64,000 bases of DNA, taken from contig QHVT01000004.1 in the NCBI GenBank assembly GCA_003223645.1, positions 59,334 to 123,333 on the forward strand. Direction: 5' to 3'. Shown piece by piece: positions 22,305 through 60,400 of the stretch. The stretch comes from Acidobacteriota bacterium (GTDB taxonomy: Bacteria > Acidobacteriota > Thermoanaerobaculia > Gp7-AA8). A program made the translations under genes and the position numbers. How positions within the stretch are numbered: position 1 is the stretch's first letter; every line of letters starts with the position of its first letter. The notes under the pieces were generated by a model. The model did no database searches, was not told where the DNA came from, and saw nothing but the letters and a program-made list of their open reading frames with translations.

Positions 22305-22355
22305 TGTAGGGCAGGCTTTCCAGCCTGCCACCAGGGGGCGGGCTGGAAAGCCCGC
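22305..22355. repeat. Palindromic element of CAGGCTTTCCAGCCTG type; second copy at 49895-49950
   Basis: gcaggctttccagcctgccaccagggggcgggctggaaagcccgc here; ggacaggctttccagcctgtcctccggggcgcaggctggaaagcctgcgc at 49895. Confidence 0.7.
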
Positions 22356-22378
22356 ATCACACCCACAATCGTTCTCTC

Positions 22379-22450
22379 CGCCATCCGCCATCCGCCATCC
22401 GCCATCCGCCATCCGCCATCCGCCATCTGCCATCTGCCATCTGCCATCTG
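22379..22450. repeat. Single-arm tandem heptamer array (GCCATCC)5(GCCATCT)5 in the moeA/padR divergent region
   Basis: Direct reading of ccatccgccatccgcc...atctgccatctgccatctg. Same heptamer as the hairpin family at 26597, 28066, 48498 and 60308. Confidence 0.9.
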
Positions 22451-26594: not shown

Positions 26595-26596
26595 GG

Positions 26597-26690
26597 CGAC
26601 GGATGGCGGATGGCAGATGGCGGATGGCAGAAGCGCCACACGGGTGGCGGGGCCATCTGCCATCTGCCATCTGCCATCGGGACGGGCGGC
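26597..26690. repeat. Hairpin element with heptamer-repeat arms: (GGATGGCR)x4 - loop agaagcgccacacgggtggcgggg - (CCATCTG)x3
   Basis: Between asd and lysC. The arms are reverse complements built from GGATGGC/GCCATCY units. Confidence 0.9.
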
Positions 26691-26694
26691 AGCG

Positions 26695-28062
26695 ATGATC
26701 GTCATCAAGTTCGGCGGCACCTCGGTCGGCGACGCGGACCGCGTCGCGAATGCGATCGAGATCGTCGCCGAGCGCAGGCAGCGCAAGCCGATCGTCGTCG
26801 TCTCCGCGCTCTCCGGCGTCACGAACAACCTCGTCGATGCGTCCGAGGCCGCGTGCTCGCAGGACCCGAAGCGCGTGCGCGAGATCATCGCCGCGGTGCG
26901 CCAGCGGCACGAAGACGTCGCGCTGCAGCTCGTGCAGCAGAAGTCCGATTTCTTCGAGTCGTTCATCAAGCAGCTCGACAAACAGATCGAGGAGATCGAC
27001 ACGATCCTGCGCGGCATCGCGCTCCTCGGCGAGATCACGCCGCGCGCGCGCGACAAAGTGATGTCGATCGGCGAGAAGCTGTCATCCGTCCTGTTCGCGT
27101 ACACGATGATGATGCGCGCGCTGCCGGGCGAGCATGTGCATTCCGAGGAAGTGATCTGGACCGATGACCGCTTCGGCGGCGCGACGCCGGACATGGCGAA
27201 GACGCGCGACGCCGCGCAGCGCGTGCTGATGCCGCTCCTCGAGCGCAATCGCATTCCGGTGATGGGCGGCTTCATCGGCCGCACCGAAGCCGGCGCGACG
27301 ACCACGCTCGGACGCAACGGATCGGATTACAGCGCCGCGATCGTCGGCGCGGCCCTCGGCGCAAGCGAAGTGCAGATCTGGACGGACGTCGACGGACTGC
27401 TCACGTGCGATCCGCGCCTCGTGCGCGGCGCGCGCGTCATCGATCGCCTGTCGTTCGACGAAGCCGCGGAGCTCGCATCGTTCGGCGCGAAGCTGCATCC
27501 GCGCACGCTCGAGCCGGCAATCGCGGAGAACGTTCCGGTGCGCGTCCTCAACACGCACAACCCCGCTTCGCAGGGGACGCTGATCACGCGCGTCGTCGAG
27601 AACGCGCCCGCCGGGCCGCGCTCGATTGCGCGCAAGAAAGGCATTGCCGTCGTGCACATCTCGTCGAACAAGATGCTCGGCGCACACGGATTTCTCGCGC
27701 GCCTCTTCGACGAATTCGAGCGGCTCGCGATCTCGGTCGATCTCATCACGACGTCCGAAGTGTCGGTGTCCGTGACGGTCGACGACACGCAGAACCTCGA
27801 CAAACTGGAAGCGCGCTTGCGCGAAGTCGCGGACGTGAACGTCGAAGCCGATCAGTGTGTCATCGCTGTCGTCGGAACGGACCTCCTCGCCGATTCCGCT
27901 GTCGGCGTGCGCGTGTTCGAGGCGCTCCGCGGCATTCGCCTGAAGATGGTCTCCCTCGGACGCTCCGGTCTCAATCTCAGCCTCGTCGTCGACAACGCCG
28001 ACGCCGATCGCGCGGTCGAGTCGATTCATCACGCGCTCTTCGAGGCGCCCGTCGCCGTATGA
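26695..28062 (+). CDS. lysC: Aspartate kinase
   Basis: MIVIKFGGTSV, VVSALSGVTN; C-terminal ACT domains. Confidence 0.9.
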   Translation: MIVIKFGGTSVGDADRVANAIEIVAERRQRKPIVVVSALSGVTNNLVDASEAACSQDPKRVREIIAAVRQRHEDVALQLVQQKSDFFESFIKQLDKQIEEIDTILRGIALLGEITPRARDKVMSIGEKLSSVLFAYTMMMRALPGEHVHSEEVIWTDDRFGGATPDMAKTRDAAQRVLMPLLERNRIPVMGGFIGRTEAGATTTLGRNGSDYSAAIVGAALGASEVQIWTDVDGLLTCDPRLVRGARVIDRLSFDEAAELASFGAKLHPRTLEPAIAENVPVRVLNTHNPASQGTLITRVVENAPAGPRSIARKKGIAVVHISSNKMLGAHGFLARLFDEFERLAISVDLITTSEVSVSVTVDDTQNLDKLEARLREVADVNVEADQCVIAVVGTDLLADSAVGVRVFEALRGIRLKMVSLGRSGLNLSLVVDNADADRAVESIHHALFEAPVAV

Positions 28063-28065
28063 GAG

Positions 28066-28150
28066 GCGGATGGCAGATGGCAGATGGCGGATGGCAGAAG
28101 AGGGTGCCGGGTGGTGGGGCCATCTGCGATCCGCCATCTGCCATCCGGGA
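28066..28150. repeat. Heptamer-armed hairpin (GGATGGCR)n - loop agaagagggtgccgggtggtgggg - (CCATCYG)n
   Basis: Between lysC and dapB. Same architecture as 26597-26690. Confidence 0.9.
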
Positions 28151-28159
28151 GGACGTGCG

Positions 28160-28798
28160 GTGAAGATCGCGCTGCACGGCTACGGCAAGATGGGACACGC
28201 CGTCGAGCGCGTCGCGAAGGAAACGGGACACGAGATCGTGCAGCCGGCCGACGCCGTGGTGCTGATCGATTTCTCTAACGCGAGCGTGCTCGATCGCGCG
28301 ATCGCGACCGCGATCGACAACCACCTCGACCTCGTCATCGGCACGACCGGCTGGAACGATCGCCTCGACGAAGTGCGCGACCGCGTGAAGAACATCGGCT
28401 GCGTCTACGCATCGAATTTTTCGCCCGGCGCAAATGCCGTGTTCGCGCTGGCGCGGCGCGCGGGAGAACTGTTCGCGCGCTTCCCGCAATACGCGGCGGG
28501 GATGGAAGAGCGGCATCACGCGCAGAAGAAAGACGCGCCGAGCGGAACGGCGCTGCGCATTGCGTCCGAGGTGCAGCAGGGAAGCGGGGGAACATTCGAT
28601 CCGCCGATCGCGGCGCTGCGCGTCGGCGCGGAATTCGGACTGCACACGCTCTACTTCGACTCGCCCGATGATCTCGTCGAGATCACGCATCGCGCGCGCG
28701 GCCGCGACGGATTCGCGCGCGGCGCGATCTTTGCGGCGGAGCTCGTGCGAGGGAAAAAGGGATTGTTTCGATTTGATGAATTGCTGGGAAGGGAATAG
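28160..28798 (+). CDS. dapB: 4-hydroxy-tetrahydrodipicolinate reductase (short form)
   Basis: GTG 28160 preceded by gggagg. VKIALHGYGKMG NAD motif, later GTTGW, HHAQKKDAPSGTA. Confidence 0.85.
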   Translation: MKIALHGYGKMGHAVERVAKETGHEIVQPADAVVLIDFSNASVLDRAIATAIDNHLDLVIGTTGWNDRLDEVRDRVKNIGCVYASNFSPGANAVFALARRAGELFARFPQYAAGMEERHHAQKKDAPSGTALRIASEVQQGSGGTFDPPIAALRVGAEFGLHTLYFDSPDDLVEITHRARGRDGFARGAIFAAELVRGKKGLFRFDELLGRE

Positions 28799-28872
28799 GA
28801 CAAATAGGACCTCTAGGACAGATAGGACGCCGATGTCCTATGCGTCCTATCTGTCCTATTCGTCCTAGTTGG
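28799..28872. repeat. Hairpin with (ATAGGAC)n / (GTCCTAT)n repeat arms
   Basis: ggacaaataggacctctaggacagataggacgccgatgtcctatgcgtcctatctgtcctattcgtcctag. A related element lies at 52193-52290. Confidence 0.9.
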
Positions 28873-29764: not shown

Positions 29765-30591
29765 TCACCATCGAAGAGCGCGTGAAAGCGCTGAAGACGT
29801 ACACCGAGCGCGATCGCCCCGAGGCGGTCAAGACGATCAGTCTGCTGCTCGTCGAATTGGAGAAAGGGAACGCGCGAGCGGCCGCGCGCGACGAAGACGG
29901 CGTGTGGCGCGCGAACACGTGGGTGAAGGAAGGAATCCTCGCCGCGTTTCGCTGGGGCGTCGCCGCCGAGTTCGCGTCGGGTGCACTGTCGTTCGTCGAC
30001 AAAGACACGATCCCGCCGCGTCGCTTCAAGGCCGCCGACGGAATCCGCATCGTGCCCGGCGGCTCGTCGATCCGGCGCGGCTCATACATCGCCAGGAGCG
30101 TGGTCATGATGCCGCCCGCGTTCGTCAACGTGGGCGCGTACGTCGACGAGAAGACGATGATCGATTCTCATGCGCTGGTCGGCTCGTGCGCGCAAATCGG
30201 CAAAGGCGTGCACATTTCCGCGGCCACGCAGATCGGCGGCGTGCTCGAGCCGGTCGGAAGTCTGCCGGTCATCATCGAAGACGACGTGATGGTCGGCGGC
30301 AACTGCGGTATTTACGAAGGAACCGTCGTGCGCTCGCGCGCCGTCATCGGCGCAGGTGTCGTGCTCACGAAATCGACGCGCGTCTACGACCTGGTGCGCG
30401 GCCAGATCTATCGCGGCAGCGCCGAGCGCCCGCTGGAAATTCCGTACGCCGCGGTCGTCATTCCGGGTTCGCGTCCGGCGGAAGGCACGTTCGCCGAAGA
30501 ACACGGTCTCAATATCGCGACGCCAATCATCGTGAAGTACCGCGACGACAAAACCGACGGCGCGACGGCGCTGGAAGAAGCCCTTCGGTGA
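29761..30591 (+). CDS. dapD: Tetrahydrodipicolinate N-succinyltransferase (hexapeptide-repeat acyltransferase; DapD-like)
   Basis: Left-handed beta-helix hexapeptide repeats ([40 protein letters not shown]...). Operon context between dapA and an aminotransferase. Confidence 0.75.
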
Positions 30592-31697
30592 AAGCCGATC
30601 GCCTCGCGAACATCGAGCTCTCGCTCATCCGCCAGATCAACGCGCTCGCCACGCCCTACTCCATCAACCTCGGCATCGGCGAGCCGAATCTCGCGCCCGA
30701 TGACACGCTGCGCGAATTCGCCGCGCGCGCCGCGACGCTGCCGTGGCAATACTCCGCGAACGCGGGCACGCTGTCGCTGCGCAAGAAATTGTGCGAGGGA
30801 ACGGAGTTCGATCCGAAGACCGAGGCGTGCGTCACCGCGGGCACGCAGGAAGCGCTGTTCGCGATCTTCACCGCGTACGTGAATCCCGGCGACGAAGTGC
30901 TCGTGCCGAATCCCGGCTTCGTGTCGTACGCGACGCTCGCGCGCATCTGCGGCGCAACGCCCGTTACGTATCAGCTCGATCCGCCGGAGTGGCACATTGA
31001 CGTCGACGCGCTGCGAAAAAAGATCACGCCGAAGACGAAGCTGATCGTCGTCAACTCGCCGTCGAATCCCCTCGGCTCGGTGATCGATCGCGAGACATTG
31101 CAGGTGATCGCGGACACCGGCGTGCTCGTCGTCAGCGATGAGATCTATCGCGAGATCTGGTACGACGCGTGGCCGGCGTCGATGGTCGGCATGGGCGACA
31201 ACGTGATCCTGATGAACGGCCTCTCGAAGAGCCACGGCATGACCGGCCTGCGCCTCGGGTGGATTCTCGCGCGCGCCGATGTGATGCAGCCGATCGTCAC
31301 CGCGCATCAGTACATCGCCACGTGCGCGTCCGTTTTCTCGCAGGCGCTCGCGGAGATGATCTTCGATCATCGCGAATGGAACGAGCAGTGGCTCGCCGGC
31401 GTGCGCGAGCAGTTCGCGGCGCAGCGCGAAGCAGCGTTGTACGCGATCCGCCACGAGCTCGACACCGAGCTCGATCCGCCACGCGGCGCGTTCTACGCGT
31501 TCGTGCCGATGCCTGCGTGCAACACGGTGGAGACCGCGAAAGAGCTCGCGACCGACGCCGCGGTGCTCGTGATTCCGGGAATCGCGTTCGGGAAAATGGG
31601 ACAGGGATTCGTGCGGGTCTCGTACGCCGCGCCCGTCGATCAGATAGCGACCGGAATCGAGCGCATCGGACGATGGTTGCGCGCAAAGGAAAGATGA
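30588..31697 (+). CDS. Class I/II PLP-dependent aminotransferase, likely N-succinyl-diaminopimelate aminotransferase
   Basis: GTG start overlapping the dapD stop (GTGA). [22 protein letters not shown] (PLP lysine), fold-type I. Confidence 0.8.
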
Positions 31698-32530
31698 AGG
31701 CAGAAGGCAGAAGGCAGAAGGCAGAAATAAGAAAGCGCCGAGGCACTCGTCTCGCGGTCTTTCTCACTTCTGCCTTCTGCCTTCTGCCTTCTGCCTTCAT
31801 TGCTCTCCCAGTTCACGCCCAAACGCCCGATTACTCCCAGTGGAACCGCGTCCTCTCCACGTACTACAACCCCGCGAAAGGCATGGACTACCGTGCGCTC
31901 AAAGCGCGCGACTTCAAGACCGTGCAGTCGCTGCGACAGCAGCTCGGCAAAGTGAACGTCGCCGCGCTCGATCGCAAGTCGCAGCTCGCGTACTGGATCA
32001 ACGTCTACAACATCAACACCGTCGCTACGGTGCTCGAGGCGTATCCGGTCGACTCGATCCGCGACATCTCGACGGATCTCATCATCCGCCTCAACGTTTT
32101 CAAGAAAGAACGCATCCCGTTCGGAAACGTCCAGCTTTCACTCGACGCCGTCGAGAACGGAAAGATTCGCGAGGGCTTTCACGATCCGCGCATTCACTTC
32201 GCGATCAACTGCGCGGCGAAAACGTGTCCGCCGATCCGGATGGAGGCGTTCAGCGGCCTGAGGCTCGACGCGCAGCTCGACGATCAGGCACGCGCGTTTC
32301 TCAACGGCCCGCACGGCGTCCGCTTCGAGCGCGACGGCGGCACGCTCACCATCCACACGACGAAAATCATGGACTGGTTCAGCGACGACTTCGAAAAATG
32401 GGGCGGCGGCAAAGCGAAGTTCATTCGCAAATACGTCCCTGCCGACAAACAGAAACTGATCGACTCCGCGAAAGAGATCGAGTTCGAGTACGACGACTAC
32501 GACTGGGACCTGAACGACTGGAAGCGCTAG
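31694..32530 (+). CDS. DUF547-domain protein with signal peptide
   Basis: ATG overlaps the aminotransferase stop (ATGA) with an aaggaaag RBS. YWINVYNINTV and FAINCAAKTCPP are DUF547 hallmarks. N-terminal 40 aa are encoded by the GAAGGCA hairpin. Confidence 0.7.
   Translation: MKAEGRRQKAEIRKRRGTRLAVFLTSAFCLLPSAFIALPVHAQTPDYSQWNRVLSTYYNPAKGMDYRALKARDFKTVQSLRQQLGKVNVAALDRKSQLAYWINVYNINTVATVLEAYPVDSIRDISTDLIIRLNVFKKERIPFGNVQLSLDAVENGKIREGFHDPRIHFAINCAAKTCPPIRMEAFSGLRLDAQLDDQARAFLNGPHGVRFERDGGTLTIHTTKIMDWFSDDFEKWGGGKAKFIRKYVPADKQKLIDSAKEIEFEYDDYDWDLNDWKR
31697..31800. repeat. Hairpin with (GAAGGCA)x3 / (TGCCTTC)x3 arms
   Basis: gaaggcagaaggcagaaggcagaaataagaaagcgccgaggcactcgtctcgcggtctttctcacttctgccttctgccttctgccttc. 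Confidence 0.9.
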
Positions 32531-32640
32531 ACAAAAGCAGAAAGCAAAAGGCAGAAAGCAGAAGTGGGAGCGGCGAGACCCAAAACGCTTTCGTCTTTAC
32601 TTCTGCTTTCTGCTTTTTGCTTTCTGCTTTCTGAGCACGC
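32531..32640. repeat. Hairpin with (RGCAGAA)n / (TTCTGCY)n arms
   Basis: aaaagcagaaagcaaaaggcagaaagcagaag...cttctgctttctgctttttgctttctgctttc, following the DUF547 stop. Confidence 0.9.
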
Positions 32641-35891: not shown

Positions 35892-35962
35892 GGGCCTCCT
35901 GGCCTCCTGGCCTCCCAGCCTCTGAGCCTCCCAGAAACCCTTAGACGCCTGGAGGCTTGGCG
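35892..35962. repeat. Hairpin with (GGCCTCC)n / (GGAGGC)n arms between convergent genes
   Basis: gggcctcctggcctcctggcctcccagcctctgagcctcccag...cctggaggcttggcggcctggaggct. Confidence 0.85.
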
Positions 35963-35971
35963 GCCTGGAGG

Positions 35972-36208
35972 CTAATCCTGTGATCGCCGCTCGAGGTCCT
36001 CGCGCAACGCGCGTCCCGGCGTGCGGTCCTTCAATCGCGGGCGCTCGAGAATGCTCGCCAGCAAATCGGTCACGCCCCAGGCGATGAACGACACGGCGGC
36101 CATGGTGAAGAGATTCGAGACCGTTTGCAGCGGTAAGAGCAGGAACAGCGTGACGGGCACGCCGATGGCCATCACGATCACGCCGACAGTCAGTCTGATT
36201 GCGGACAC
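35972..36208 (-). CDS. Small membrane protein (2 TM), unknown function
   Basis: 78 aa with two hydrophobic segments (LTVGVIVMAIGVPVTLFLLL; AAVSFIAWGVTDLLASIL). Confidence 0.45.
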   Translation of the reverse strand: MSAIRLTVGVIVMAIGVPVTLFLLLPLQTVSNLFTMAAVSFIAWGVTDLLASILERPRLKDRTPGRALREDLERRSQD

Positions 36209-41514: not shown

Positions 41515-41830
41515 GATTCAACGCCGGGATTCCGGGATTCATCCCATGAGCTCTGGGATCGATCCCATGATTTCTGGCATCGATCCCATGAGCTCCGGGA
41601 TCGATCCCATGATTTCTGGCATCGATCCCATGATTTCTGGCATTGATCCCATGATTTCTGGGATCGATGCCATAGATTCTGGCATCGATCCCATAGATTC
41701 TGGGATTCATGCCAGAAATTCTGGGATTCATCCCATAGATTCTGGGATTGATCCCATGAGTTCTGGGATTCATGCCAGGATTCTGGGATTCATGCCAGGA
41801 TTCTGGTATTCGTCCCAGGATTGGGATTGT
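41515..41830. repeat. Tandem array of ~14 degenerate 21-bp units (gatYcatcccatgaKttctgg) between carbonic anhydrase and sucD
   Basis: Direct reading of gatcccatgatttctggcatc gatcccatgagctccgggatc ... . Units are 21 bp (two helical turns) and the region is non-coding between convergent genes. Confidence 0.85.
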
Positions 41831-42720: not shown

Positions 42721-42832
42721 CATGTCATCCCGAGCGTGAGCGAGGGACCTGGGCGGGTGGGGCGCGCTGCATGTTCTTCGCAGCCCCACCCACCCAGGTC
42801 CCTCGCTCACGCTCGGGATGACATCGTTTTAT
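42721..42832. mobile_element. MITE-like ~105-bp perfect palindrome (gtcatcccgagcgtgagcgagggacctgggcgggtggggc ... gccccacccacccaggtccctcgctcacgctcgggatgac), intergenic copy between sucD and sucC
   Basis: ~40-bp arms that are exact reverse complements, with a ~20-nt loop. A second copy lies at 44488-44584. Confidence 0.8.
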
Positions 42833-44002: not shown

Positions 44003-45157
44003 TTGTATCACATCGGAGATCAAGTCGTCGTCGAGCCGACCGCGCTGGTTGCGGGCGGCGCAGCACTCGCGCGCGTAGACGGTTTTCCCATCTTCGCCGT
44101 CAACGTTTTTCCCGGCGACATCGCGCGCGTCGAGCTCGTCGAAGTGAAGAAAGGCTTCGCGCGCGCGGACCTCGTCGAGCTCATCACGCCGAGCCCGTGG
44201 CGGCGAGCGGCACCGTGTCCGATCGCGAGCGAATGCGGCGGCTGCGATTGGACGGCGCTGCGGCTCGACAAACAACTCGAGGCGAAGCGCGGGATTTTGT
44301 TCGAGTCGCTGCGGCGAATCGGGAAGATTCATGACGCGCCGGAGATCACGCTGCATCCGTCCGCGCTCAACTATCGATTGCGATCGCGATTGCATCGCGA
44401 TGGAGATGCGATCGGGTTTTATGCGATGCGCTCGAATCGGGTCGTGCCGTTGGCGGAGGAGTGTGAAGTTGTGGGAGTCAACACCGCTCATGTCATCCCG
44501 AGCGTAGCGAGGGACCTGGGTGGGAGGGGCAACGCATCGCAACCCCACCCGCCCAGGTCCCTCGCTGACGCTCGGGAGGACATCTGGGAGATCGACGGCC
44601 GCGTCATCACAGAAGGCGAGCTCTCCATCGCCGGCTATCGTCTCAACACCGACGCGTTCTTCCAGGTCAACCGCCATCTCCTTCAAACGATGTTGCAGCT
44701 CGTGCAGACGCACGCGTCAGACGTGCGCTCGAAGAAGACAGCGATCGATTTGTACGCGGGCGTCGGCTTCTTCAGCGCGCCGCTCGCGCGGATGTTCGAG
44801 CGCGTGATCGCGGTCGAGGGCTCGCCGGTGTCGGCGCGCTACGCGCGCGTCAACCTGCCGGCGAACGCGAAGGTGATCGAGGCGCCGGTCGAGCGGCACA
44901 TAGCCAAGCTGCCGCCCGCGGAGTTCGTGTTCCTCGATCCGCCACGCGCGGGGACGCGTCCGGAGGTGATCCGTGCGATCGCGGAGCGGACGAAAGAAAA
45001 GATTGCGTACCTGTCGTGCGATCCCGTAACCTTCGCGCGTGACGCGAGCCGGCTGATCGCGTCGGGTTGGCGTCTGTCGACCCTCGACCTGCTCGACCTT
45101 TTCCCCAATACCCATCACGTCGAGACGCTCTCCTCGTTCGAGCGTGCGCAAACATGA
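44003..45157 (+). CDS. 23S rRNA (uracil-5-)-methyltransferase RlmD/RumA family (TRAM + 4Fe-4S + SAM MTase), carrying an in-frame 31-codon palindromic insertion
   Basis: TRAM-like N-terminus, Cys cluster ([12 protein letters not shown]), DAFFQVN hallmark, SAM motifs ([17 protein letters not shown]). Residues ~163-193 ([31 protein letters not shown]) are encoded by the palindromic element. Confidence 0.85.
44488..44584. mobile_element. Second copy of the MITE-like palindrome, inserted in-frame inside the RlmD/RumA-like CDS
   Basis: gtcatcccgagcgtagcgagggacctgggtgggaggggcaacgcatcgcaaccccacccgcccaggtccctcgctgacgctcgggaggacat. Arms match the 42721 copy with a few substitutions. Length ~93 bp (31 codons), and the reading frame of the flanking gene is preserved. 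Confidence 0.8.
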
Positions 45158-47253: not shown

Positions 47254-47598
47254 GTGAAGGTCGAGCACGAAATGTCTGCGACGCTACTGCGGCTGGGTTT
47301 GTGGACGATGATTCTCGCGCTCGCGCTCTACGTGATCGACGAGACGTTCCCCGACCAGCCGATCGGCGACATCATCTCGACGTCACTCCTCACCCAAATC
47401 ATGCTCGTCGCCGGTGGCGCGATCGCCGCCGGCTTCCTGCTGCATTTCTTCGGGAAAGGCGCAGCCGCCGTAGGCAAAAACCGCTGCCGCGTTTGCAAGA
47501 CGCCCATCCCTCATGGCGCGATTTACTGTCGAGCGCACTTGCGCAACATATTGCACCAGGAAGACGACAAAACGCATTCGACGCGCCTGCGGCGGTGA
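47254..47598 (+). CDS. Small membrane protein with C-terminal Cys/His zinc-ribbon-like motif
   Basis: Two TM segments then CRVCKTPIPHGAIYCRAH. Stop overlaps the miaA GTG (GTGA). Confidence 0.45.
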   Translation: MKVEHEMSATLLRLGLWTMILALALYVIDETFPDQPIGDIISTSLLTQIMLVAGGAIAAGFLLHFFGKGAAAVGKNRCRVCKTPIPHGAIYCRAHLRNILHQEDDKTHSTRLRR

Positions 47599-48494
47599 AG
47601 CCGATCCTCCTCGCCGGCCCCACCGGCACCGGTAAATCATGGCTGGCAATTGAGTTAGCCAAAGCCATCGGCGGAGAGATCATCAACTACGACTCTGTTC
47701 AGATCTATCGCGGCTTCGACATCGGCAGCGCGAAACCGGCCGCCGATGAACGGCAAGCCGTTCCCCATCATCTATTTGACATCGTCGATGCCGATGAGGA
47801 GTTCAATGCCGCCGAGTACGGGAAAGTCGCACGTGTCTTGTGCAGTAAATTGCACACACCGGTGATCTTCGTCGGCGGGACGTTCTTCTACCTCCGCGCG
47901 TTTCTGAGCGGCCTGCCGGAGATGCCGGGACGGGATGAAGCGATTCGCACGCGGCTCCGTGCGATCGCGAAAACGGAACGCGGACGCGAGCGGCTGCATC
48001 GCTGGCTGTCGAAAATTGATCCGCGAAGTGGTAGAAAGATCGCGTTGGGTGACCGGCATCGCGTGGAACGAGCGTTGGAGGTTTGGCTGATCGGCGGCAG
48101 GCCGATCTCGAGCTGGGAGCGCGGCAGCGAAGACGAGCTGCCGTCGATCAAGATCGCGCTGTCGCTCGACCGTGCGCGTCTCAACGAAGTGCTCGACCGC
48201 CGCGTCGACGCGATGTTCGCCTCCGGCCTGCTCGAAGAGACGCGCGGACTGCTCGCGCGCTTCCCCGCCACCGCCCGCCCGTTCGGCACGATCGGCTACA
48301 AAGAAGCGGCAGCCGTCGTACGCGGCGAAATGGCACTGGACACCGCGATCGCGGAAACCAAACGCCGCACGCGCGCGTATGCGAAACGGCAGATGACATG
48401 GCTCAGGTCGGAGCGAAATGTGCACTGGCTCGACGCGTCTGACCGGAATGCAATGCTCGCCGCCGCGCTGCGGCTGATCGAGGTAGAGAGTTGA
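47595..48494 (+). CDS. miaA: tRNA dimethylallyltransferase
   Basis: GPTGTGKS P-loop, YDSVQIYRGFDIGSAKP, HHLFD. Confidence 0.9.
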   Translation: MKPILLAGPTGTGKSWLAIELAKAIGGEIINYDSVQIYRGFDIGSAKPAADERQAVPHHLFDIVDADEEFNAAEYGKVARVLCSKLHTPVIFVGGTFFYLRAFLSGLPEMPGRDEAIRTRLRAIAKTERGRERLHRWLSKIDPRSGRKIALGDRHRVERALEVWLIGGRPISSWERGSEDELPSIKIALSLDRARLNEVLDRRVDAMFASGLLEETRGLLARFPATARPFGTIGYKEAAAVVRGEMALDTAIAETKRRTRAYAKRQMTWLRSERNVHWLDASDRNAMLAAALRLIEVES

Positions 48495-48497
48495 GAA

Positions 48498-48660
48498 GAA
48501 GTGGATGGCGGATGGCGGATGGCCTAGGGCGGATGGCGGATGGCGGATGGCAGATGGCGGGTCGCGGATCGCGGATGGCGGGTCACAGACCGTGGTTTTC
48601 TTCCGCCATCCGCCATCTGCCATCTGCCATCCGCAATCTGCCGTCTGCCATCTGCCTCAT
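48498..48660. repeat. Largest heptamer-armed hairpin: (GGATGGCR)n left arm, central segment, (GCCATCYG)n right arm
   Basis: Direct reading. Both arms are >40 bp of GATGGCG/GATGGCA units and their complement. Confidence 0.9.
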
Positions 48661-49888
48661 CGCGCTCGTCGCCGCGAGCTGCACGACCACGACGCCCCCG
48701 CCGCCCGCGGTCACGCCGCAGGGGGAGGATCGGTATCTCATCGATCCGCGAACCGGCTCCGCGGCCGGCGATCCGCTGACGGAGCGCAAGTTCGAAGCGG
48801 CATGGGCAAACATTCTCTCCGGCGATGAAACGGAAGCGCGTCGATTGCTCGACGAGATCCGCCGGAAAAATCCCGCGTACGTTCCCGCCGCGCTCGCGCA
48901 GGCAGTCATCGACATCCACGCGAATCGCTTCGATGAAGCGCTGACCATCGCGAAAAAATACGACACGATCGCCGCGAAAGTGTACGAAGCGGAGATCGCG
49001 CTGCGCGAGAACGATGCGCGCAACGCGCTCACGCTCTATCGCGCCATCGCCGCGCAGCCCGGCGCGCCTTCGACCGCGGGCGAGCGCGTCGCGCAACTCG
49101 AGAACACGATGTACGAGCAGCTCTTCGCATCCGCGAAAACCGCGGCGGACGCGGAGTCGATCGCGCTCCTGCGCGAAGCGCTCACGTACAGACCCGCGGC
49201 GGTCGAGCCGCGCATTCTGCTCGCGCGCAGGCTCGTCACGCAGCGCGCGTTCGATGAAGCGCGGCGCGAGCTCGATCCGCTCCTCAACAGCGCCGAAGTC
49301 GACCGCCCCGAAGTGCAGGAACTGCTCGCGGAGATCGACGTCGGACGCGGCCGCTTTCAGGAAGCGATCGTGCGCTACGACCGGCTCGCGCGCCGCACCA
49401 AAGAGCCGCGCTACCAGCAGCGCCTCGACGAGATCAAGTCGGAATGGAGCAGCGCCAACATGCCCGCGGACTATCGCGCTGCGCTCGACAGCCCCGCGAT
49501 CACGCGCGCCGACTTCGCCATCCTTCTCTACTGGTCCGTCCCCTCGATCCGCTTCGCCCGCAACCTCGGCACGCCGCCGATCGCCGTCGACATCGAAGAC
49601 GTTGCCGGCCGCGACGAGATCGTCCGCGCGATCGCCATCGGCGTCTTCGACGTCGATCCCGTCACGCGACGCGTCGGCCCGACGCGCACTGTCACGGCCG
49701 AACGCCTCTCGCGCCACCTCGCGCGCGTGCTGCAACTCCGCGGCGCCGCCTGCGCGCGTGGCGTGACGATCGACAAAGTGCTCCCGGCCTGCGGCGTGAA
49801 CGACCCGCTCGCAACGATGCCGCCCGACGCGCTCGTGAGCGGACGCGATGCGAAGGCGCTGTTGGATCAAGTCGCGAAACAGCTCTAG
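48575..49888 (+). CDS. Hypothetical lipoprotein with helical/TPR-like N-terminal region
   Basis: Candidate ATG at 48575 lies inside the hairpin. The right arm encodes ...SAIRHLPSAIRNLPSAICLIALVAASC (lipobox-like VAASC). No recognisable catalytic motifs; the start is uncertain. Confidence 0.45.
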   Translation: MAGHRPWFSSAIRHLPSAIRNLPSAICLIALVAASCTTTTPPPPAVTPQGEDRYLIDPRTGSAAGDPLTERKFEAAWANILSGDETEARRLLDEIRRKNPAYVPAALAQAVIDIHANRFDEALTIAKKYDTIAAKVYEAEIALRENDARNALTLYRAIAAQPGAPSTAGERVAQLENTMYEQLFASAKTAADAESIALLREALTYRPAAVEPRILLARRLVTQRAFDEARRELDPLLNSAEVDRPEVQELLAEIDVGRGRFQEAIVRYDRLARRTKEPRYQQRLDEIKSEWSSANMPADYRAALDSPAITRADFAILLYWSVPSIRFARNLGTPPIAVDIEDVAGRDEIVRAIAIGVFDVDPVTRRVGPTRTVTAERLSRHLARVLQLRGAACARGVTIDKVLPACGVNDPLATMPPDALVSGRDAKALLDQVAKQL

Positions 49889-49949
49889 CGTCCTGGTGTG
49901 GGACAGGCTTTCCAGCCTGTCCTCCGGGGCGCAGGCTGGAAAGCCTGCG

Positions 49950-50559: not shown

Positions 50560-52191
50560 ATGGAATCGGTCCCGCCTCGCGCGGAAGTCACTGTCTACTC
50601 GCCGCTGTTCTCGCCCTTTCGTCACACGCTCGACGGGAGTGCCGTGTCCATCGGAAGGGCATCCGACTGCTCGATTCCCATCAAGGATCGTTACCTCTCG
50701 CGCAAACACGCCGAGATCATCGCCGTCGGCGCGGCGTGGGTCCTCAAGGACCTCGGCAGCGCGAACGGCACGTACCTCAACGGCACGCGCGTCGAACGCG
50801 ACGAAGCGCTGAAGCCCGGCGACCGCATCCGCCTCGGCGACACCGAGATCGTCTTCGAGGCGACGGAGCGCAACACCGATCGCTTCATCGCCGTCGCCGA
50901 GTCGAAAGCCAGCGCCACGATCGCGATCCCCGTTCACGAGATCACCGACCGTCCCGAAGCCGTCGACATCGCGCGCCTGCAGACGCTCACGCTCCTCGCG
51001 CGCGAGCTGATCGAAGACCGCCCGATGGACGAGCTGTTCGGCTTCATCGTCGAGCGCGTGATGGAGCATTTGCATCCCTCGAGAGCGGCGATCGCGCTGC
51101 TTGCGTCGGACGGAAAGTCGTTCACCAAAGTCGAAGTGCGGCGGCAGGACAAGAACGACTCCAGCGAGCTGACGATCAGCCACACGCTCCTGGCCGACAT
51201 CGTCGAAGAGAAAAAAGCGCTCGCGTTCATGGACATCAGCGCGGACGACAAACTGAGCCGCGCGCAGTCGATCATCATGCAGGGCATCCACTCGATTCTC
51301 TGTGCACCGCTGATGATCGGCAACGCCGTGGTCGGCGTGCTGTATGTCGACTACCTCTTCACGCAGCGCTCGATCACCGAAGACGACGTGCGCCTCGTCG
51401 CGCAGATCGGACGCTTCGCCGCCATCAAGCTCGAGACGACGCGTCTCCGCGAAGACGCGATCCAGAAACGCATCATGGACGAGGAGCTGAAGACCGCGTC
51501 AAACATCCAGCGCCGGCTCCTTCCCGCCGCGCCGAGCGCGATTGCCGGCTACACGTTCGTCGGCCGCAACCAGCCGAGCCGCGTCGTCAGCGGCGACTAC
51601 TACGACTTTGCCGTCCGTCCGAACGGCAAGGTCTACTTCGTCATCGGCGACGTGAGCGGGAAAGGCGTGACCGCAGGAATCATGATGGCCGGCCTCCAGG
51701 TCGCATTCCGCATCTTCTCGAAGACCGATCCCGATCCGGCCACGCTGGTGACGCAGCTCAATCTCGCGCTCAAAGAGAATCTCCCGCAGTCGAAATTCGT
51801 CACGCTCTTCCTCGGACGCCTCGACACCACGACCGGCGTGATCGAGTACGTCAACGCCGGCCACACACCGCCGCTCTGGCTGCACAAACGCGGCGTCACG
51901 GAGTTGACGGAAAGCGATCTCCTCCTCGGCGTCGTCACGCGCGCCGAGTTCGTGAACCGCAAACTGCAGCTCGATGCCGGCGACTCGCTCATCCTCTTCA
52001 CCGACGGCGTGAGCGAAGCGCGCAACGCCGCCGACGCCGACCTCGGATCGAATCTCCCGCTCGGCTCGATGCACGGAGCCAGCGCGGAGCTCATCGCGCG
52101 CGCCGTCAACGAAGCCGTGATCGCGCACGTCGGCGCCGCAGAAAATCTCGAGGACGACGTCACGGTCGTCATCGTCAGCCGCTCCGCGTAG
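50560..52191 (+). CDS. FHA-GAF-PP2C (SpoIIE/RsbU-type) serine/threonine phosphatase
   Basis: N-terminal FHA (SIGRASDCSIPIKDRYLSRKHAEI...GSANGTYLNG), central GAF, C-terminal PP2C (SGDYYDF...FVIGDVSGKG...LFTDG). Confidence 0.85.
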   Translation: MESVPPRAEVTVYSPLFSPFRHTLDGSAVSIGRASDCSIPIKDRYLSRKHAEIIAVGAAWVLKDLGSANGTYLNGTRVERDEALKPGDRIRLGDTEIVFEATERNTDRFIAVAESKASATIAIPVHEITDRPEAVDIARLQTLTLLARELIEDRPMDELFGFIVERVMEHLHPSRAAIALLASDGKSFTKVEVRRQDKNDSSELTISHTLLADIVEEKKALAFMDISADDKLSRAQSIIMQGIHSILCAPLMIGNAVVGVLYVDYLFTQRSITEDDVRLVAQIGRFAAIKLETTRLREDAIQKRIMDEELKTASNIQRRLLPAAPSAIAGYTFVGRNQPSRVVSGDYYDFAVRPNGKVYFVIGDVSGKGVTAGIMMAGLQVAFRIFSKTDPDPATLVTQLNLALKENLPQSKFVTLFLGRLDTTTGVIEYVNAGHTPPLWLHKRGVTELTESDLLLGVVTRAEFVNRKLQLDAGDSLILFTDGVSEARNAADADLGSNLPLGSMHGASAELIARAVNEAVIAHVGAAENLEDDVTVVIVSRSA

Positions 52192-52192
52192 G

Positions 52193-52290
52193 ACTTTTAG
52201 GACGAATAGGACATCTAGGACAGATAGGATGTCCTAGAAGTCCTATTCGTCCTATTCGTCCTATTCGTCCTACCTGTCCTACCCCGCCTT
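52193..52290. repeat. Hairpin with (ATAGGAC)n / (GTCCTAT)n arms; second member of this family
   Basis: ggacttttaggacgaataggacatctaggacagataggatgtcctagaagtcctattcgtcctattcgtcctattcgtcctacctgtcctacc. Confidence 0.9.
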
Positions 52291-58992: not shown

Positions 58993-60314
58993 AGAATCAC
59001 GGAAAACACATCAAGCACATCGAGCACGTCGCCGGCACGACGTACGTCCGCTTGCCGATCATCGCGTTCATCGGCGGCCTGCTCGCGCTCATCGTCCTCA
59101 CGATCGCGTTCTGGTCGGCGAAGCGAAAGCAGGACGCGAAGCTGAACGTGAAGTCGGCGTCGGAGATCCGCACGCTTCTTCCCTCGCTCGTCGGCCTCAC
59201 GCAGTCGACGCTCGACGGCGGCAACAGCGTCCAGGTCCTGCAGAACGGCAACGGATTTTTCCCGCCGATGCTGCGCGACATCGCCGCCGCCCGCGAGAGC
59301 GTGCACGTCGAGACATACATCTGGAGCAAGAGCGCGTTCGCGACGCAGTTTGCGCAATCGCTCGCGGCGAAAGCGCGGCAGGGCGTCGAAGTGCGCGTGC
59401 TCGTCGACGCGTCCGGCGGACGCGATCTCAAGGGCGACACGCAGAAGATCCTGGAGGACGCCGGCGCAAAGGTCGCGCATTTTCATCCCATCCGCATCAG
59501 CAACCTCGGCCGTCTGAACAATCGCGATCACCGCAAGCTCGTCATCATCGACGGCCGCATCGCCTACACCGGCGGCCACGGCATTTCCGCGAACTGGACG
59601 GGCGACGCGCAGGACAAAGAGCATTGGCGCGACACGGGGCTGCGCATCAGCGGCCCGGTCGTCAATCGATTGCAGGCGTGCTTCTCCGAAAACTGGATCG
59701 AGGAGACCGGCGAGATTCCCGCGGGCGACAAGTTCTTTCCGCACATCGCGCCGGCAGGCCCCACCGAGGCGCACGTCGCGTACACGTCGCCGACCGGCAG
59801 CATGTCGTCGGTGGAGATCCTCTACTACCTCGCCATCAAATCCGCGCGGCGCGAGATCCTGATTCAGAATCCATATCTGCTGCCGAACGAGGAGGCGATC
59901 AACGCGCTCGAAGACGCGGTGAAGCGCGGCGTCGACGTGCGCATCATGGTCCCGTCGACCGACGCGACCGACAGCGCGGTCGTGCAGCACGCGAGTCATC
60001 ATCACTTCGGCACGCTGCTCAAGCGCGGGATCAAGCTGTACGAGTACAAACACACGCTGCTGCATCAGAAAGTGATCGTCGTCGACGGCATCTGGTCGTC
60101 CGTCGGCTCGACGAATTTCGACGAGCGCTCGTTCCAGCTCAACGACGAAGTGAACATCGGCCTCCTCGACGCGAACGTCGCCGCGCAGCTGCGCAGCGCG
60201 TTTCAATCCGACCTTCGTTACTGCACGCAACGCCACTTCAACGAATGGCAGAAGCGCTCGCTGTGGCACAAGTTGGAGGATGGGCTGGCATACTTGGCAC
60301 ATGCGCAGATGTAG
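58989..60314 (+). CDS. Phospholipase D-family protein, cardiolipin synthase-like (two HKD motifs)
   Basis: TM anchor, HKD1 RDHRKLVIIDG and HKD2 HQKVIVVDG...GSTNFD. ATGA overlap with the EEP gene. Confidence 0.85.
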   Translation: MKNHGKHIKHIEHVAGTTYVRLPIIAFIGGLLALIVLTIAFWSAKRKQDAKLNVKSASEIRTLLPSLVGLTQSTLDGGNSVQVLQNGNGFFPPMLRDIAAARESVHVETYIWSKSAFATQFAQSLAAKARQGVEVRVLVDASGGRDLKGDTQKILEDAGAKVAHFHPIRISNLGRLNNRDHRKLVIIDGRIAYTGGHGISANWTGDAQDKEHWRDTGLRISGPVVNRLQACFSENWIEETGEIPAGDKFFPHIAPAGPTEAHVAYTSPTGSMSSVEILYYLAIKSARREILIQNPYLLPNEEAINALEDAVKRGVDVRIMVPSTDATDSAVVQHASHHHFGTLLKRGIKLYEYKHTLLHQKVIVVDGIWSSVGSTNFDERSFQLNDEVNIGLLDANVAAQLRSAFQSDLRYCTQRHFNEWQKRSLWHKLEDGLAYLAHAQM

Positions 60315-60400
60315 ATGGCAGATGGCAGATGGCGGATGGCGGATGGCCCCACCGCCCGGCTCGCGCTCCTGCCATCTGCCATCTGCCATCCGCCATCTGC
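60308..60400. repeat. Heptamer-armed hairpin (TAGATGGCAGATGGCAGATGGCGGATGGCGGATGGC - loop - GCCATCTGCCATCTGCCATCCGCCATCTGC)
   Basis: Direct reading, between the PLD-like and GNAT genes. Confidence 0.9.

What the first reader, a model, noticed from the sequence alone, without database searches (positions are those of the whole stretch)
31694..31800. Repeat hairpins lying inside predicted 5' coding regions and encoding signal-peptide N-regions
The DUF547 gene's only available start (ATG 31694, ATGA-coupled to the aminotransferase stop with a good RBS) places the (GAAGGCA)3...(TGCCTTC)3 hairpin inside its first 35 codons. This yields [43 protein letters not shown], a plausible though long signal peptide. 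The lipoprotein at 48575 similarly begins within the heptamer hairpin (SAIRHLPSAIRNLPSAICLIALVAASC). Either these elements have been co-opted as translated leader or signal sequences, which would be a strong mRNA structure at the start of translation, or the true starts are non-canonical.
Basis: partly seen in the sequence, partly recalled or inferred. Interest (0 to 1): 0.55.

Follow-up and report, generated by a model that had tools for sequence, protein, structure and literature searches.

The report
Repeat hairpins translated as signal peptides
Two very stable DNA hairpins built from 7-base repeats sit inside the start of two genes for exported proteins, and comparison with relatives indicates that they are translated and now supply most of the export signal; this resembles a rare, previously described fate of small palindromic repeat elements.

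Summary
Window 31694-31800 is a 42-nt-arm, 95% complementary hairpin, ATG(AAGGCAG)x4...(CTGCCTT)x4CAT. As RNA it folds at about -93 kcal/mol (z = -10). It lies between the conserved ATGA stop/start overlap and the mature DUF547 domain.

About 115 of 120 orthologues carry an ordinary Sec signal peptide (MKRALLILALALPLHA|Q) that starts at the same ATGA. In the window the hairpin follows codon 2 and replaces the old n/h-region. The old c-region (IALPVHA|Q) is kept in frame.

The TPR lipoprotein shows the same pattern. Its conserved start is the TTGA-coupled TTG at 48491, not ATG 48575. That start reads stop-free through the 167-nt hairpin to the lipobox Cys at 48680.

Evidence for translation:
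- No canonical start lies downstream of either hairpin.
- At least five independent repeat insertions in these two leaders are all in frame.
- All hairpin-region indels seen at DNA level are multiples of 3, and near-identical protein alleles differ by exactly 7 aa (21 nt, three heptamers).
- Mature DUF547 remains under purifying selection.

Most other hairpins of this kind in the window are strictly intergenic. Precedents exist (Rickettsia RPE; the Yersinia RU-2/YPO1552 signal peptide), so I file this as a new variant of a known kind. Translation and export are inferred, not measured.

The parts
30588..31697 (+). Class I/II aminotransferase gene. Its TGA stop (31695-31697) overlaps the DUF547 ATG.
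   Evidence: Pfam PF00155, E = 2.5e-57. The gene is syntenic in L002, L004, L005 and L006 with the same ATGA overlap.
31694..31696 (+). DUF547 start codon (ATG of the ATGA overlap). It is base-paired with CAT 31798-31800 at the foot of the stem.
   Evidence: The ATGA columns are invariant in all 7 aligned loci, with or without the hairpin. Pairing is seen in the MFE and centroid folds.
31694..31735 (+). Purine-rich left arm, (GAAGGCA)x4.4. It encodes [14 protein letters not shown], a positively charged n-region.
31736..31758 (+). Loop containing a small internal stem. It encodes RRGTRLAV and spans the n/h boundary.
   Evidence: Substitutions among the window, L001 and L002 keep charge then hydrophobicity (LAVFL, LAAFL, MAILL).
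31759..31800 (+). Pyrimidine-rich right arm, (CTTCTGC)x4.6. It encodes [13 protein letters not shown], a hydrophobic h-region.
31799..31819 (+). Retained ancestral end of the signal peptide, IALPVHA. Predicted signal peptidase I cleavage falls after Ala42 (31819|31820).
   Evidence: It aligns with (IL)ALAIPLYA|Q of hairpin-free orthologues. Residues at -3/-1 are V/A.
31694..32530 (+). DUF547 coding sequence (278 aa). GenBank PYQ31028.1 annotates it from ATG 31673 (285 aa).
   Evidence: Pfam PF04784, E = 1.1e-24. Exact look-up. dN/dS of the mature part is 0.25-0.32 between hairpin-bearing lineages.
32533..32633 (.). Second hairpin, (AAAGCAG)n/(TTCTGCT)n, starting 2 nt after the DUF547 stop. It is intergenic and is absent in the closest relative L006.
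47595..48494 (+). miaA (IPP transferase). Its TGA stop overlaps the TTG start of the TPR lipoprotein as TTGA.
   Evidence: Pfam PF01715. The same TTGA junction occurs in 10 other loci.
48491..48493 (+). Conserved TTG start of the TPR lipoprotein (TTGA-coupled).
   Evidence: all orthologous loci examined, with or without repeats, are open from this TTG.
48495..48661 (+). 167-nt hairpin, (GGATGGC)n / (GCCATCY)n, lying inside the lipoprotein leader. It contains four in-frame ATGs (48512, 48533, 48554, 48575).
48662..48682 (+). Retained ancestral h-region end and lipobox, ALVAAS-C. The Cys codon is at 48680-48682.
   Evidence: It aligns with LAIALVLASC of hairpin-free L130 and with the lipoboxes of about 110 orthologues.
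48491..49888 (+). TPR lipoprotein coding sequence (465 aa from the TTG). GenBank PYQ31044.1 annotates it from ATG 48512 (458 aa).
   Evidence: Pfam TPR_19..
26600..26678 (.). Intergenic member of the GGATGGC hairpin family, inserted at the ancestral asd|aspartate-kinase stop/start overlap.
28065..28147 (.). Intergenic member of the same family, inserted at the ancestral aspartate-kinase|dapB ATGA overlap.
60295..60400 (.). Intergenic member of the same family in the opposite loop orientation. It ends 3 nt before ATG 60404.
28794..28867 (.). Intergenic 9-mer hairpin (TAGGACA type) upstream of dapA.
52189..52281 (.). Intergenic 9-mer hairpin. Its first unit contains the TAG stop of the SpoIIE-type phosphatase gene. 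The downstream beta-lactamase-family gene keeps its own signal peptide.

Best explanation
The hairpins belong to an abundant class of palindromic elements in this Thermoanaerobaculia-like acidobacterial genome. Each element is a run of 7-9-nt tandem repeats, a short loop, and the inverted run. Most copies sit in the tiny spacers between genes. Two copies landed just inside the 5' end of genes for exported proteins: after codon 2 of DUF547 (M-K) and after codon 3 of the TPR lipoprotein (M-R-R). They survive there because they are translated in frame as part of the cleavable signal peptide.

The proposed mechanism has four steps.
1. Translation starts at the ancestral codon that overlaps the upstream gene's stop (AUGA or UUGA). 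The ribosome terminating on the upstream ORF melts the foot of the stem and re-initiates. This step is inferred.
2. The purine-rich arm reads as a Lys/Arg/Glu/Gly/Gln-rich, net positive n-region.
3. The pyrimidine-rich arm reads as a Phe/Leu/Cys/Pro/Ser/Ala-rich hydrophobic stretch. This stretch fuses to what remains of the native h/c-region.
4. Signal peptidase I (DUF547) or the lipoprotein pathway (TPR protein) removes the leader, so the mature protein is unchanged.

What is shown: element anatomy, position relative to the conserved start, open frame, frame-preserving length variation, retention of the cleavage site and lipobox, and purifying selection on the mature protein. What is inferred: actual translation, coupling-dependent initiation, and export.
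For: 1. Ancestral state. About 115 of the 120 closest DUF547 orthologues have a 16-25-aa Sec signal peptide ending ..PLHA|Q. In hairpin-free syntenic loci (L005, L006, L007) that peptide starts at the ATGA overlap with the aminotransferase stop.
2. Window, L001 and L002 keep the same ATGA. The hairpin follows, then IALPVHA|Q, IALPIHA|Q or LFA|Q, all in frame.
3. No canonical start lies between the hairpin and the conserved Trp. ATT 31799 is deleted in L002.
4. The hairpin has identical length in three lineages that are 74-78% identical in the mature protein. The only indel is 12 nt.
5. Near-identical alleles differ by exactly 7 aa, which is three heptamers: P0005/P0274 (otherwise 100% identical), P0147/P0268 (98.7%), and P0147 against P0267 and P0272. 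At DNA level, window and L128 differ by 24-nt and 6-nt indels.
6. The TPR lipoprotein's TTGA start is conserved in all 11 loci examined. The frame is stop-free to the lipobox through three unrelated repeat insertions: the GGATGGC hairpin, an 8-mer CCTCGG/CCGAGG hairpin in L132 that the gene caller missed, and (GGGTTGCT)n direct arrays.
7. A further DUF547 allele (L004) carries a different single-arm array, (TTCATCG)x5.4, in frame in its leader.
8. The chimeric leaders keep signal-peptide features: net n-region charge +2 to +11, an uncharged stretch of 14-27 aa with mean Kyte-Doolittle hydropathy 1.4-2.6, a small residue at -1, or Cys at +1.
9. dN/dS of mature DUF547 is 0.25-0.32 between hairpin-bearing lineages, against 0.22 between hairpin-free L005 and L006, so these are not pseudogenes.
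10. By contrast, the two junction insertions between cytoplasmic-enzyme genes are 104 and 101 nt, not multiples of 3, and lie cleanly outside both ORFs.
11. Hairpins of the same GAAGGCA family lie in the predicted leaders of a BatD protein (L036) and a PQQ beta-propeller protein (L056).
Against: No expression, proteomic or export data exist. Translation is inferred only from comparative patterns.

The AUG is buried at the foot of a stem of about -90 kcal/mol, which would block ordinary 30S binding. A 42-bp near-perfect RNA duplex is also a textbook RNase III substrate (general knowledge), so the transcript could be cut rather than translated.

The leaders are unusually long (42 and 63 aa). The TPR right arm encodes Arg and His (SAIRHLPSAIRNLPS), so it contributes n-region rather than h-region. 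No signal-peptide predictor was available.

Frame-shifted alleles would be hard to find through protein databases, so the in-frame count has some ascertainment bias. L132, found independently of its gene call, was nevertheless in frame.

Only three DNA sequences carry the DUF547 hairpin. A roughly 170-nt mosaic patch means they may not be fully independent.
Confidence: 0.75

Rival explanations
1. The hairpins are untranslated intergenic elements. The two genes start downstream at a non-canonical codon, giving proteins without a working signal peptide.
For: Nine of about 11 hairpins in the window are strictly intergenic. The start codon is sequestered in a very stable stem. In-frame ATT (31799) and CTG codons exist after or within the right arm.
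Against: Only 8 residues (IALPVHAQ) in the window, and 4 (LFAQ) in L002, would precede the mature protein, yet the cleavage motif is retained. ATT 31799 is absent in L002. The orthologues' start is the upstream ATGA or TTGA, not a downstream codon. Untranslated heptamer arrays would not be expected to vary only in steps of three units or to be in frame in every independent insertion.
Confidence: 0.07
2. The insertions have inactivated or crippled the two genes. The open frames are recent accidents and the proteins are no longer made or exported.
For: The hairpin allele of DUF547 is unique among the 11 members of its 90% identity cluster and looks recently acquired through a roughly 170-nt recombination patch. 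Such a structure should depress expression.
Against: The same hairpin at the same site is kept in L001 and L002, which differ from the window and from each other by dS of about 0.6-0.7. The mature region is under purifying selection there (dN/dS 0.25-0.32), similar to the hairpin-free L005/L006 pair (0.22). The TPR hairpin allele occurs in at least 7 distinct sequences that are all open.
Confidence: 0.08
3. The heptamer arrays act as contingency (phase-variation) switches. Slippage by one or two units shifts the frame of a gene for an exported protein off, and slippage back turns it on.
For: The unit length is not a multiple of 3, the location is the 5' coding region of surface or exported proteins, and copy number is demonstrably polymorphic. 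This is the classical architecture of SSR phase variation, and enrichment of SSRs near N-termini is discussed in PMC4692102.
Against: Only in-frame (three-unit) variants were seen, and no OFF allele was found. Arrays are short (about 4 units), which predicts low slippage rates. The same elements are mostly intergenic, and the inverted second arm has no role in such a switch. This reading is compatible with, and additional to, the main explanation.
Confidence: 0.08
4. The hairpins are assembly artefacts of a metagenome-assembled genome.
For: The window matches a MAG. Palindromes and tandem repeats are hard to assemble.
Against: The same hairpin at the same site is present in independent assemblies from ENA, NCBI and JGI (L001, L002/L003, L128/L129), with lineage-specific substitutions.
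Confidence: 0.02

Closest known systems
YPAL/RU-2 palindromic mobile repeat forming part of the predicted signal peptide of Yersinia pestis YPO1552 (Delihas 2007; PMC2759123, PMC2229807)
   Same: [quoted passage not shown] Homologues elsewhere have unrelated signal peptides.
   Different: RU-2 is a 168-bp MITE of fixed sequence in enterobacteria. Here the arms are tandem 7-9-nt repeats of variable copy number in Acidobacteriota. The event recurs with unrelated elements at the same two leaders. There is comparative evidence (frame-preserving three-unit steps, conservation across lineages) that the Yersinia case lacked.
[quoted passage not shown] 2000, as summarised in PMC2229807
   Same: Palindromic repeats occur both between genes and in frame inside conserved protein genes. 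They are tolerated because the encoded peptide does not disturb function.
   Different: RPEs are 105-146-bp elements of conserved sequence inserted at internal, surface-exposed positions of cytoplasmic proteins. Here the insertions are in cleavable leaders, overlap the start codon, and consist of short tandem repeats.
Heptameric simple-sequence repeats of large, GC-rich or cyanobacterial genomes (Xanthomonas GGGAATC, Nostoc GGGGAYT, cyanobacterial STRR; PMC4692102)
   Same: The unit length is 7, about four units are preferred, and the repeats sit mostly within 0-50 bp of stop or start codons, sometimes overlapping the stop. The same (GAAGGCA)n unit occurs as direct arrays in cyanobacteria, Verrucomicrobiota, Chloroflexia and others.
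   Different: [quoted passage not shown] Here two inverted arrays form a long perfect hairpin, and two copies are inside coding sequence.
REP/BIME and REPIN elements (PMC3733652, PMC3116915)
   Same: They are short extragenic palindromes dispersed in operon spacers and are highly variable between close relatives.
   Different: REPs are 20-40-bp imperfect palindromes with a GTAG or CGTC head and are linked to RAYT transposases. The elements here have tandem-repeat arms, ATG...CAT or similar ends, and no RAYT was looked for or seen.
SSR-based phase-variable (contingency) genes
   Same: A repeat unit that is not a multiple of 3 lies in the 5' coding region of a surface or exported protein, and copy number is polymorphic.
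   Different: Only frame-preserving variants were observed, the arrays are short, and there is a second, inverted arm.

Membership tests
In-frame palindromic repeat insertions in protein genes (RPE-like / RU-2-YPO1552-like) | The element forms a long stem-loop with inverted arms. | tested here: met
   42-nt arms, 95% complementary; -93 kcal/mol, z = -10. The second element folds at -140 kcal/mol, z = -7.9.
In-frame palindromic repeat insertions in protein genes (RPE-like / RU-2-YPO1552-like) | The element belongs to a dispersed family that is also found between genes. | tested here: met
   GGATGGC-type copies at 26600, 28065 and 60295 align including the loop. GAAGGCA-type hairpins with ATGAAGGCAG...CTGCCTTCAT ends occur in 10 other Thermoanaerobaculia loci and one Pirellulales locus.
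In-frame palindromic repeat insertions in protein genes (RPE-like / RU-2-YPO1552-like) | The element lies inside a conserved ORF, in frame and without stop codons, while homologues lack it. | tested here: met
In-frame palindromic repeat insertions in protein genes (RPE-like / RU-2-YPO1552-like) | The inserted sequence is actually translated and the protein still functions. | not testable with these tools
   Only indirect support is available: indels that are multiples of 3, allele differences of 7 aa, the retained cleavage site, and dN/dS of 0.25-0.32.
Rickettsia palindromic element (RPE) family proper | Sequence homology to RPE consensus families and occurrence in Rickettsia or Wolbachia. | tested here: not met
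   The host is an acidobacterial MAG (Thermoanaerobaculia-like). The arms are tandem heptamers, unlike RPEs as described in PMC2229807. No sequence comparison with RPEs was run.
Sec (SPase I) signal peptide | A positive n-region, an uncharged hydrophobic h-region of roughly 7-15 or more residues, and small residues at -3/-1. | tested here: met
   Window DUF547 leader: net charge +7, a 23-aa uncharged stretch with mean hydropathy 1.87, and V/A at -3/-1. This was a heuristic only; no SignalP run was possible.
Lipoprotein (SPase II) signal peptide | A lipobox [LVI][ASTVI][GAS]C preceded by a hydrophobic stretch and a positive n-region. | tested here: met
   The window has ...NLPSAICLIALVAAS-C, with the Cys aligned to the lipobox Cys of about 110 orthologues. 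The -3 residue is Ala, not Leu.
REP/BIME | A 20-40-bp imperfect palindrome with a GTAG or CGTC tetranucleotide head. | tested here: not met
   The arms are 42-60 nt of tandem repeats and the ends read ATGAAGG.../GAAGAAGTGG....
Intrinsic transcription terminator | A GC-rich stem followed directly by a run of T. | tested here: not met
   The right arm is followed by ATTGCTCTCCC. Only the small loop stem (31739-31754) matches the scan, and the number of matches in the region equals that in shuffles (9 against 9.0).
Phase-variable SSR contingency locus | ON and OFF alleles that differ by repeat-unit numbers shifting the frame. | tested here: inconclusive
   Copy number varies, but only by three units (7 aa) in the four allele pairs seen. 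OFF alleles would be hard to detect in protein databases.
Known RNA families (Rfam 15) | A match at the gathering threshold. | tested here: not met
   There were no matches in the whole window.

The most novel reading that the evidence does not exclude
Purine-arm then pyrimidine-arm tandem-repeat hairpins may act as orientation-independent, portable export cassettes. Being palindromic, they read as 'charged then hydrophobic' on either strand. The GAAGGCA family also carries an ATG at both termini and has no stop codon in any frame of either arm. Insertion next to a stop/start junction could therefore replace, lengthen or create signal peptides and membrane anchors. Heptamer slippage could then switch the exported protein on and off. 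That would make these elements a recurrent source of secretome innovation and variation in Acidobacteriota, rather than merely tolerated passengers.
Probability: 0.12. Interest if true: 0.75.

Novelty: new variant of a known kind. Interest (0 to 1): 0.5.

Why it matters
The result shows how compact bacterial genomes absorb invasive palindromic repeats. Cleavable signal peptides act as 'safe harbours', and the genetic code itself turns a purine/pyrimidine hairpin into a charged-then-hydrophobic leader.

It also has practical value. Gene callers mis-start these genes or call spurious 36-86-aa proteins from the hairpins. Start-codon choice here should follow the conserved stop/start overlap.

If the leaders are confirmed experimentally, they would be a natural case of translation initiating at a codon buried in a stem of about -90 kcal/mol. 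That would be a stringent test case for termination-reinitiation coupling and ribosome helicase activity. The rule that heptamer arrays change only in steps of three units gives a simple computational signature for finding other translated repeat elements.

Tried and rejected
1. A protein-database search with a synthetic hairpin peptide returned only short hypothetical ORFs, including cyanobacterial ones. It did not recover long proteins with such leaders, so it was uninformative for generality.
2. A metagenome scan for the aminotransferase-end/ATGAARGCAGAAGGCA junction found nothing in the JGI collection. The second scan, on the TTGA junction of the TPR gene, gave 6 loci.
3. I considered the idea that the elements are selected to be stop-free 'coding cassettes' and did not adopt it. 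By eye, roughly half of the repeat units in the window and related loci contain TAG or TGA (for example TAGGACA, ACGATGA, TAGGGGT), and most copies are intergenic. This was not tested statistically.
4. The purine-arm-first order is a bias, not a rule. It holds for 12 of 12 arm pairings (11 loci) of the GAAGGCA family and most window copies, but 35893-35990, L132 and some L004 and L005 elements have the opposite order.
5. The terminator reading was rejected. There are no Rfam matches.
6. The RumA comparison could not show whether the REP-like palindrome at 44506-44566 is a clean insertion. It shows only that it lies in frame between the two conserved halves.
7. Independent insertion of the same hairpin in the window lineage was considered. 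I rejected it in favour of recombination, because the 60 nt downstream of the hairpin also switch affinity from L006 to L001.
Full report
**Observation**

Window 31694-31800 is a near-perfect palindrome: ATG(AAGGCAG)x4 AAATAAGAAAG - 23 nt - CTTTCTCA(CTTCTGC)x4 CTTCAT. The arms are 42 nt and 95% complementary. Folded as RNA, 31670-31830 gives -93.2 kcal/mol against -49.6 +/- 4.3 for dinucleotide shuffles (z = -10.1). The AUG at 31694 pairs with CAU 31798-31800 at the foot of the stem.

The ATG overlaps the TGA of a class I/II aminotransferase gene as ATGA. The ORF continues into a DUF547 domain (Pfam E = 1.1e-24). The quoted peptide [43 protein letters not shown] is exact. No in-frame ATG, GTG or TTG lies between 31694 and the conserved Trp.

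The second case, hairpin 48495-48661 built from (GGATGGC)n/(GCCATCY)n, folds at about -140 kcal/mol (z = -7.9). It also lies in an open frame leading to a TPR protein with a lipobox.

**Context**

The window (64% GC) holds about 11 hairpins of the same architecture: 4-10 copies of a 7-, 8- or 9-nt unit, a 20-35-nt loop, and the inverted array. They lie at 26600, 28065, 28794, 31694, 32533, 35893, 48495, 52189, 54055 and 60295, plus a one-armed array at 22377. Apart from the two at issue, each two-armed copy sits cleanly between a stop codon and the next start, usually beginning 0-6 nt after the stop.

The copies at 26600, 28065 and 60295 (reverse strand) align including their loops, so they are a dispersed family. 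Rfam has no match anywhere in the window, and the terminator scan is not above chance.

The window matches a MAG labelled 'Acidobacteria bacterium'. Its GenBank proteins PYQ31028.1 (DUF547, annotated from ATG 31673) and PYQ31044.1 (TPR, annotated from ATG 48512) are exact matches. The nearest named relatives are Thermoanaerobaculia.

**DUF547 orthologues**

Of the 120 closest orthologues, about 115 start with an ordinary Sec signal peptide of the type MKRALLILALALPLHA|QDLxQWNRIL. Three share a hairpin- or repeat-encoded leader: P0003 and P0005 carry the same hairpin, and P0091 has a different repeat.

The loci are syntenic: asd, aspartate kinase, dapB, dapA, dapD, aminotransferase, DUF547, class-A-like beta-lactamase. 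In the hairpin-free loci L005, L006 and L007, DUF547 starts at the same ATGA overlap.

The alignment shows the hairpin inserted directly after ATGAAG (M-K). It is followed by ATT GCT CTC CCA GTT CAC GCC CAA (IALPVHAQ), which corresponds to the end of the old h-region and the c-region. The n-region and most of the h-region have therefore been replaced by hairpin-encoded residues, while the cleavage site is retained.

In L004 a one-armed array (TTCATCG)x5.4 lies in frame in the same leader, giving MRNQIRMPSSFIVHRSSFIVLLLLATSASA|Q.

**Evidence that the hairpin is read by ribosomes**

1. Window, L001 and L002 are only 74-78% identical in the mature protein (dS about 0.6-0.7), yet their hairpins have exactly the same length. 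The only nearby indel is 12 nt. Tandem heptamers would be expected to slip in 7-nt steps.
2. Within 90% clusters, P0274 equals P0005 plus one extra EGKRQKA, which is 21 nt or three heptamers, and is otherwise 100% identical.
3. Loop substitutions keep the character of the peptide: RKRRGTRLAVFL, RKHRGTGLAAFL and RTRANTRMAILL.
4. The mature part has dN/dS of 0.25-0.32 between hairpin-bearing lineages, against 0.22 between the hairpin-free L005 and L006.
5. ATT 31799, the obvious non-canonical downstream candidate, is deleted in L002.

This hairpin is also the only one shared by the window, L001 and L002. All other hairpins in the 20-kb syntenic stretches are lineage-specific.

**TPR lipoprotein**

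About 110 of 120 orthologues have a classical lipoprotein leader such as MTRTKILILLAMTIVAAS-C. At DNA level the start is the TTG of a TTGA overlap with the miaA stop. This holds in all 11 loci examined, with or without repeats.

The window's TTG 48491 is that codon, and it is in frame and stop-free through the whole hairpin:
(M)RRSGWRMADGLGRMADGGWQMAGRGSRMAGHRPWFSSAIRHLPSAIRNLPSAICLIALVAAS-C.

Window and L128 differ here by 24-nt and 6-nt indels. Among near-identical alleles, P0147 differs from P0268 and P0272 by a 7-aa block in the right arm, and from P0267 by a 7-aa block in the left arm.

Two unrelated repeat insertions occupy the same leader in other lineages:
- L132 has an 8-mer CCTCGG/CCGAGG hairpin, in frame and stop-free, which the gene caller missed by starting after the lipobox.
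- L131 and L133-L135 have (GGGTTGCT)n direct arrays encoding LLGCWVAGLL.

**Contrast cases and further examples**

At the asd|aspartate-kinase and aspartate-kinase|dapB junctions, relatives have GTGA or ATGA overlaps. In the window, hairpins of 104 and 101 nt (not multiples of 3) are inserted exactly there. TGA is kept on the left as the stop, and (A/G)TGA is recreated on the right as the start.

A scan of species-representative genomes for (GAAGGCA)x4 hit at least 120 loci in many phyla. Most are one-armed arrays. The hairpin form was seen in 11 loci, 10 of them Thermoanaerobaculia, often with ATGAAGGCAG...CTGCCTTCAT termini.

Two of these lie in the predicted leaders of exported proteins:
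- BatD in L036: ...[23 protein letters not shown]|ND.
- A PQQ beta-propeller in L056.

The others are intergenic.

**Mechanism**

Because the arms are purine-rich then pyrimidine-rich, the genetic code turns them into K/R/E/G/Q/A followed by F/L/C/P/S/A. All chimeric leaders keep a net positive n-region (+2 to +11), an uncharged stretch of 14-27 residues (mean hydropathy 1.4-2.6), and a small -1 residue or the lipobox Cys.

The leader is removed on export, so the mature protein is untouched. This explains why such insertions survive in leaders and in spacers and are otherwise rare inside genes.

The start codon is buried in the stem, so I infer that initiation depends on the ribosome terminating at the overlapping stop (AUGA or UUGA). 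That arrangement predates the insertion. Cleavage of the long duplex by RNase III, and hence reduced expression, cannot be excluded.

**Evolutionary oddity**

Over both flanking genes the window is closest to hairpin-free L006 (93% aa, 85-97% nt). In 31690-31860 it is closest to L001 (81-95% nt) and only 54-65% identical to L006. It is also the only hairpin-bearing member of its 90% cluster. The hairpin together with the adjacent leader end seems to have moved between lineages by homologous recombination as a patch of about 170 nt.

**Comparison with the literature**

In-frame palindromic repeats are known from Rickettsia (RPE). Delihas described the RU-2/YPAL repeat as forming part of the predicted signal peptide of Y. 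pestis YPO1552, whose homologues have unrelated signal peptides (PMC2759123, PMC2229807). Heptameric SSRs close to stop and start codons are known from Xanthomonas and Nostoc (PMC4692102).

My literature searches found no description of inverted tandem-heptamer hairpins in Acidobacteriota or of their recurrent use in leaders. I therefore rate this as a new variant of a known kind, with moderate interest.

**Limits**

There are no expression or export data and no signal-peptide predictor was available. Only three DNA copies of the DUF547 hairpin allele were seen. Some ascertainment bias exists, because most alleles were found through called proteins.

Noticed in passing
window 26595-26698 and 28063-28163: Hairpins of the GGATGGC family are inserted exactly at ancestral GTGA/ATGA stop-start overlaps (asd|aspartate kinase, aspartate kinase|dapB). 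TGA is present on both sides, which resembles a 3-nt target duplication that regenerates both the stop and a new start codon.
   Followed up: partly
window 31690-31860: There is a mosaic patch. The hairpin plus about 60 nt downstream resembles distant L001 (81-95% nt), while both flanks resemble hairpin-free L006 (85-97%). This suggests transfer of the hairpin-bearing leader by homologous recombination.
   Followed up: partly
window 44506-44566 (inside ORF 44003-45157): A REP-like palindrome (AGCGAGGGACCTGGG...CCCAGGTCCCTCGCT), related to the one at 42722-42824, lies in frame inside a RumA-like RNA uracil-5-methyltransferase ORF, between the two halves that align to E. coli RumA. This is an RPE-like situation.
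   Followed up: partly
window 42722-42824: A 103-nt perfect-ended palindrome, ATGTCATCCCGAGCG...CGCTCGGGATGACAT, sits between the sucC stop and the sucD start on the minus strand.
   Followed up: no
window 3497-3930: A tandem array of a 42-nt unit (GTGACGAAAGATCACGCCGCTCTCTCGTTTTAACAGACATGC), 10.4 copies and 86% matches, lies between a metallophosphoesterase gene and a sulfatase-TPR gene.
   Followed up: no
window 41530-41817: A tandem array of a 21-nt unit, 13.8 copies, each containing the palindrome TGGGATCGATCCCA, lies between a carbonic anhydrase gene and sucD.
   Followed up: no
window 22314-22352 and 49904-49947: Two copies of a GGCTTTCCAGCC(TG)...(CA)GGCTGGAAAGCC hairpin make up another small repeat family. 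The first lies next to a one-armed (TCCGCCA)x10 array (22377-22448) in the moeA 5' region, where the long ORF from ATG 22433 probably over-extends the gene.
   Followed up: no
loci L008-L127 (genome scan): Exact (GAAGGCA)x4 arrays occur in cyanobacteria, Verrucomicrobiota, Chloroflexia, Bacteroidota, Planctomycetota, Nitrospirota and Acidobacteriota. Most are one-armed. In every hairpin form found, the purine arm comes first (12 of 12 arm pairings in 11 loci).
   Followed up: partly
L132 1347-1500; P0150, P0152, P0155-P0160 gene calls: Automatic gene calls for the TPR lipoprotein often start at or after the lipobox because the caller does not read through the repeat. The conserved TTGA start upstream is in frame in the loci inspected (L132-L134). 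Hairpins elsewhere are called as 36-86-aa 'hypothetical proteins'.
   Followed up: yes
window 32533-32633: A hairpin lies directly after the DUF547 stop. It is absent in the 93%-identical relative L006, which has a 33-nt spacer there, so intergenic hairpins turn over very fast.
   Followed up: partly
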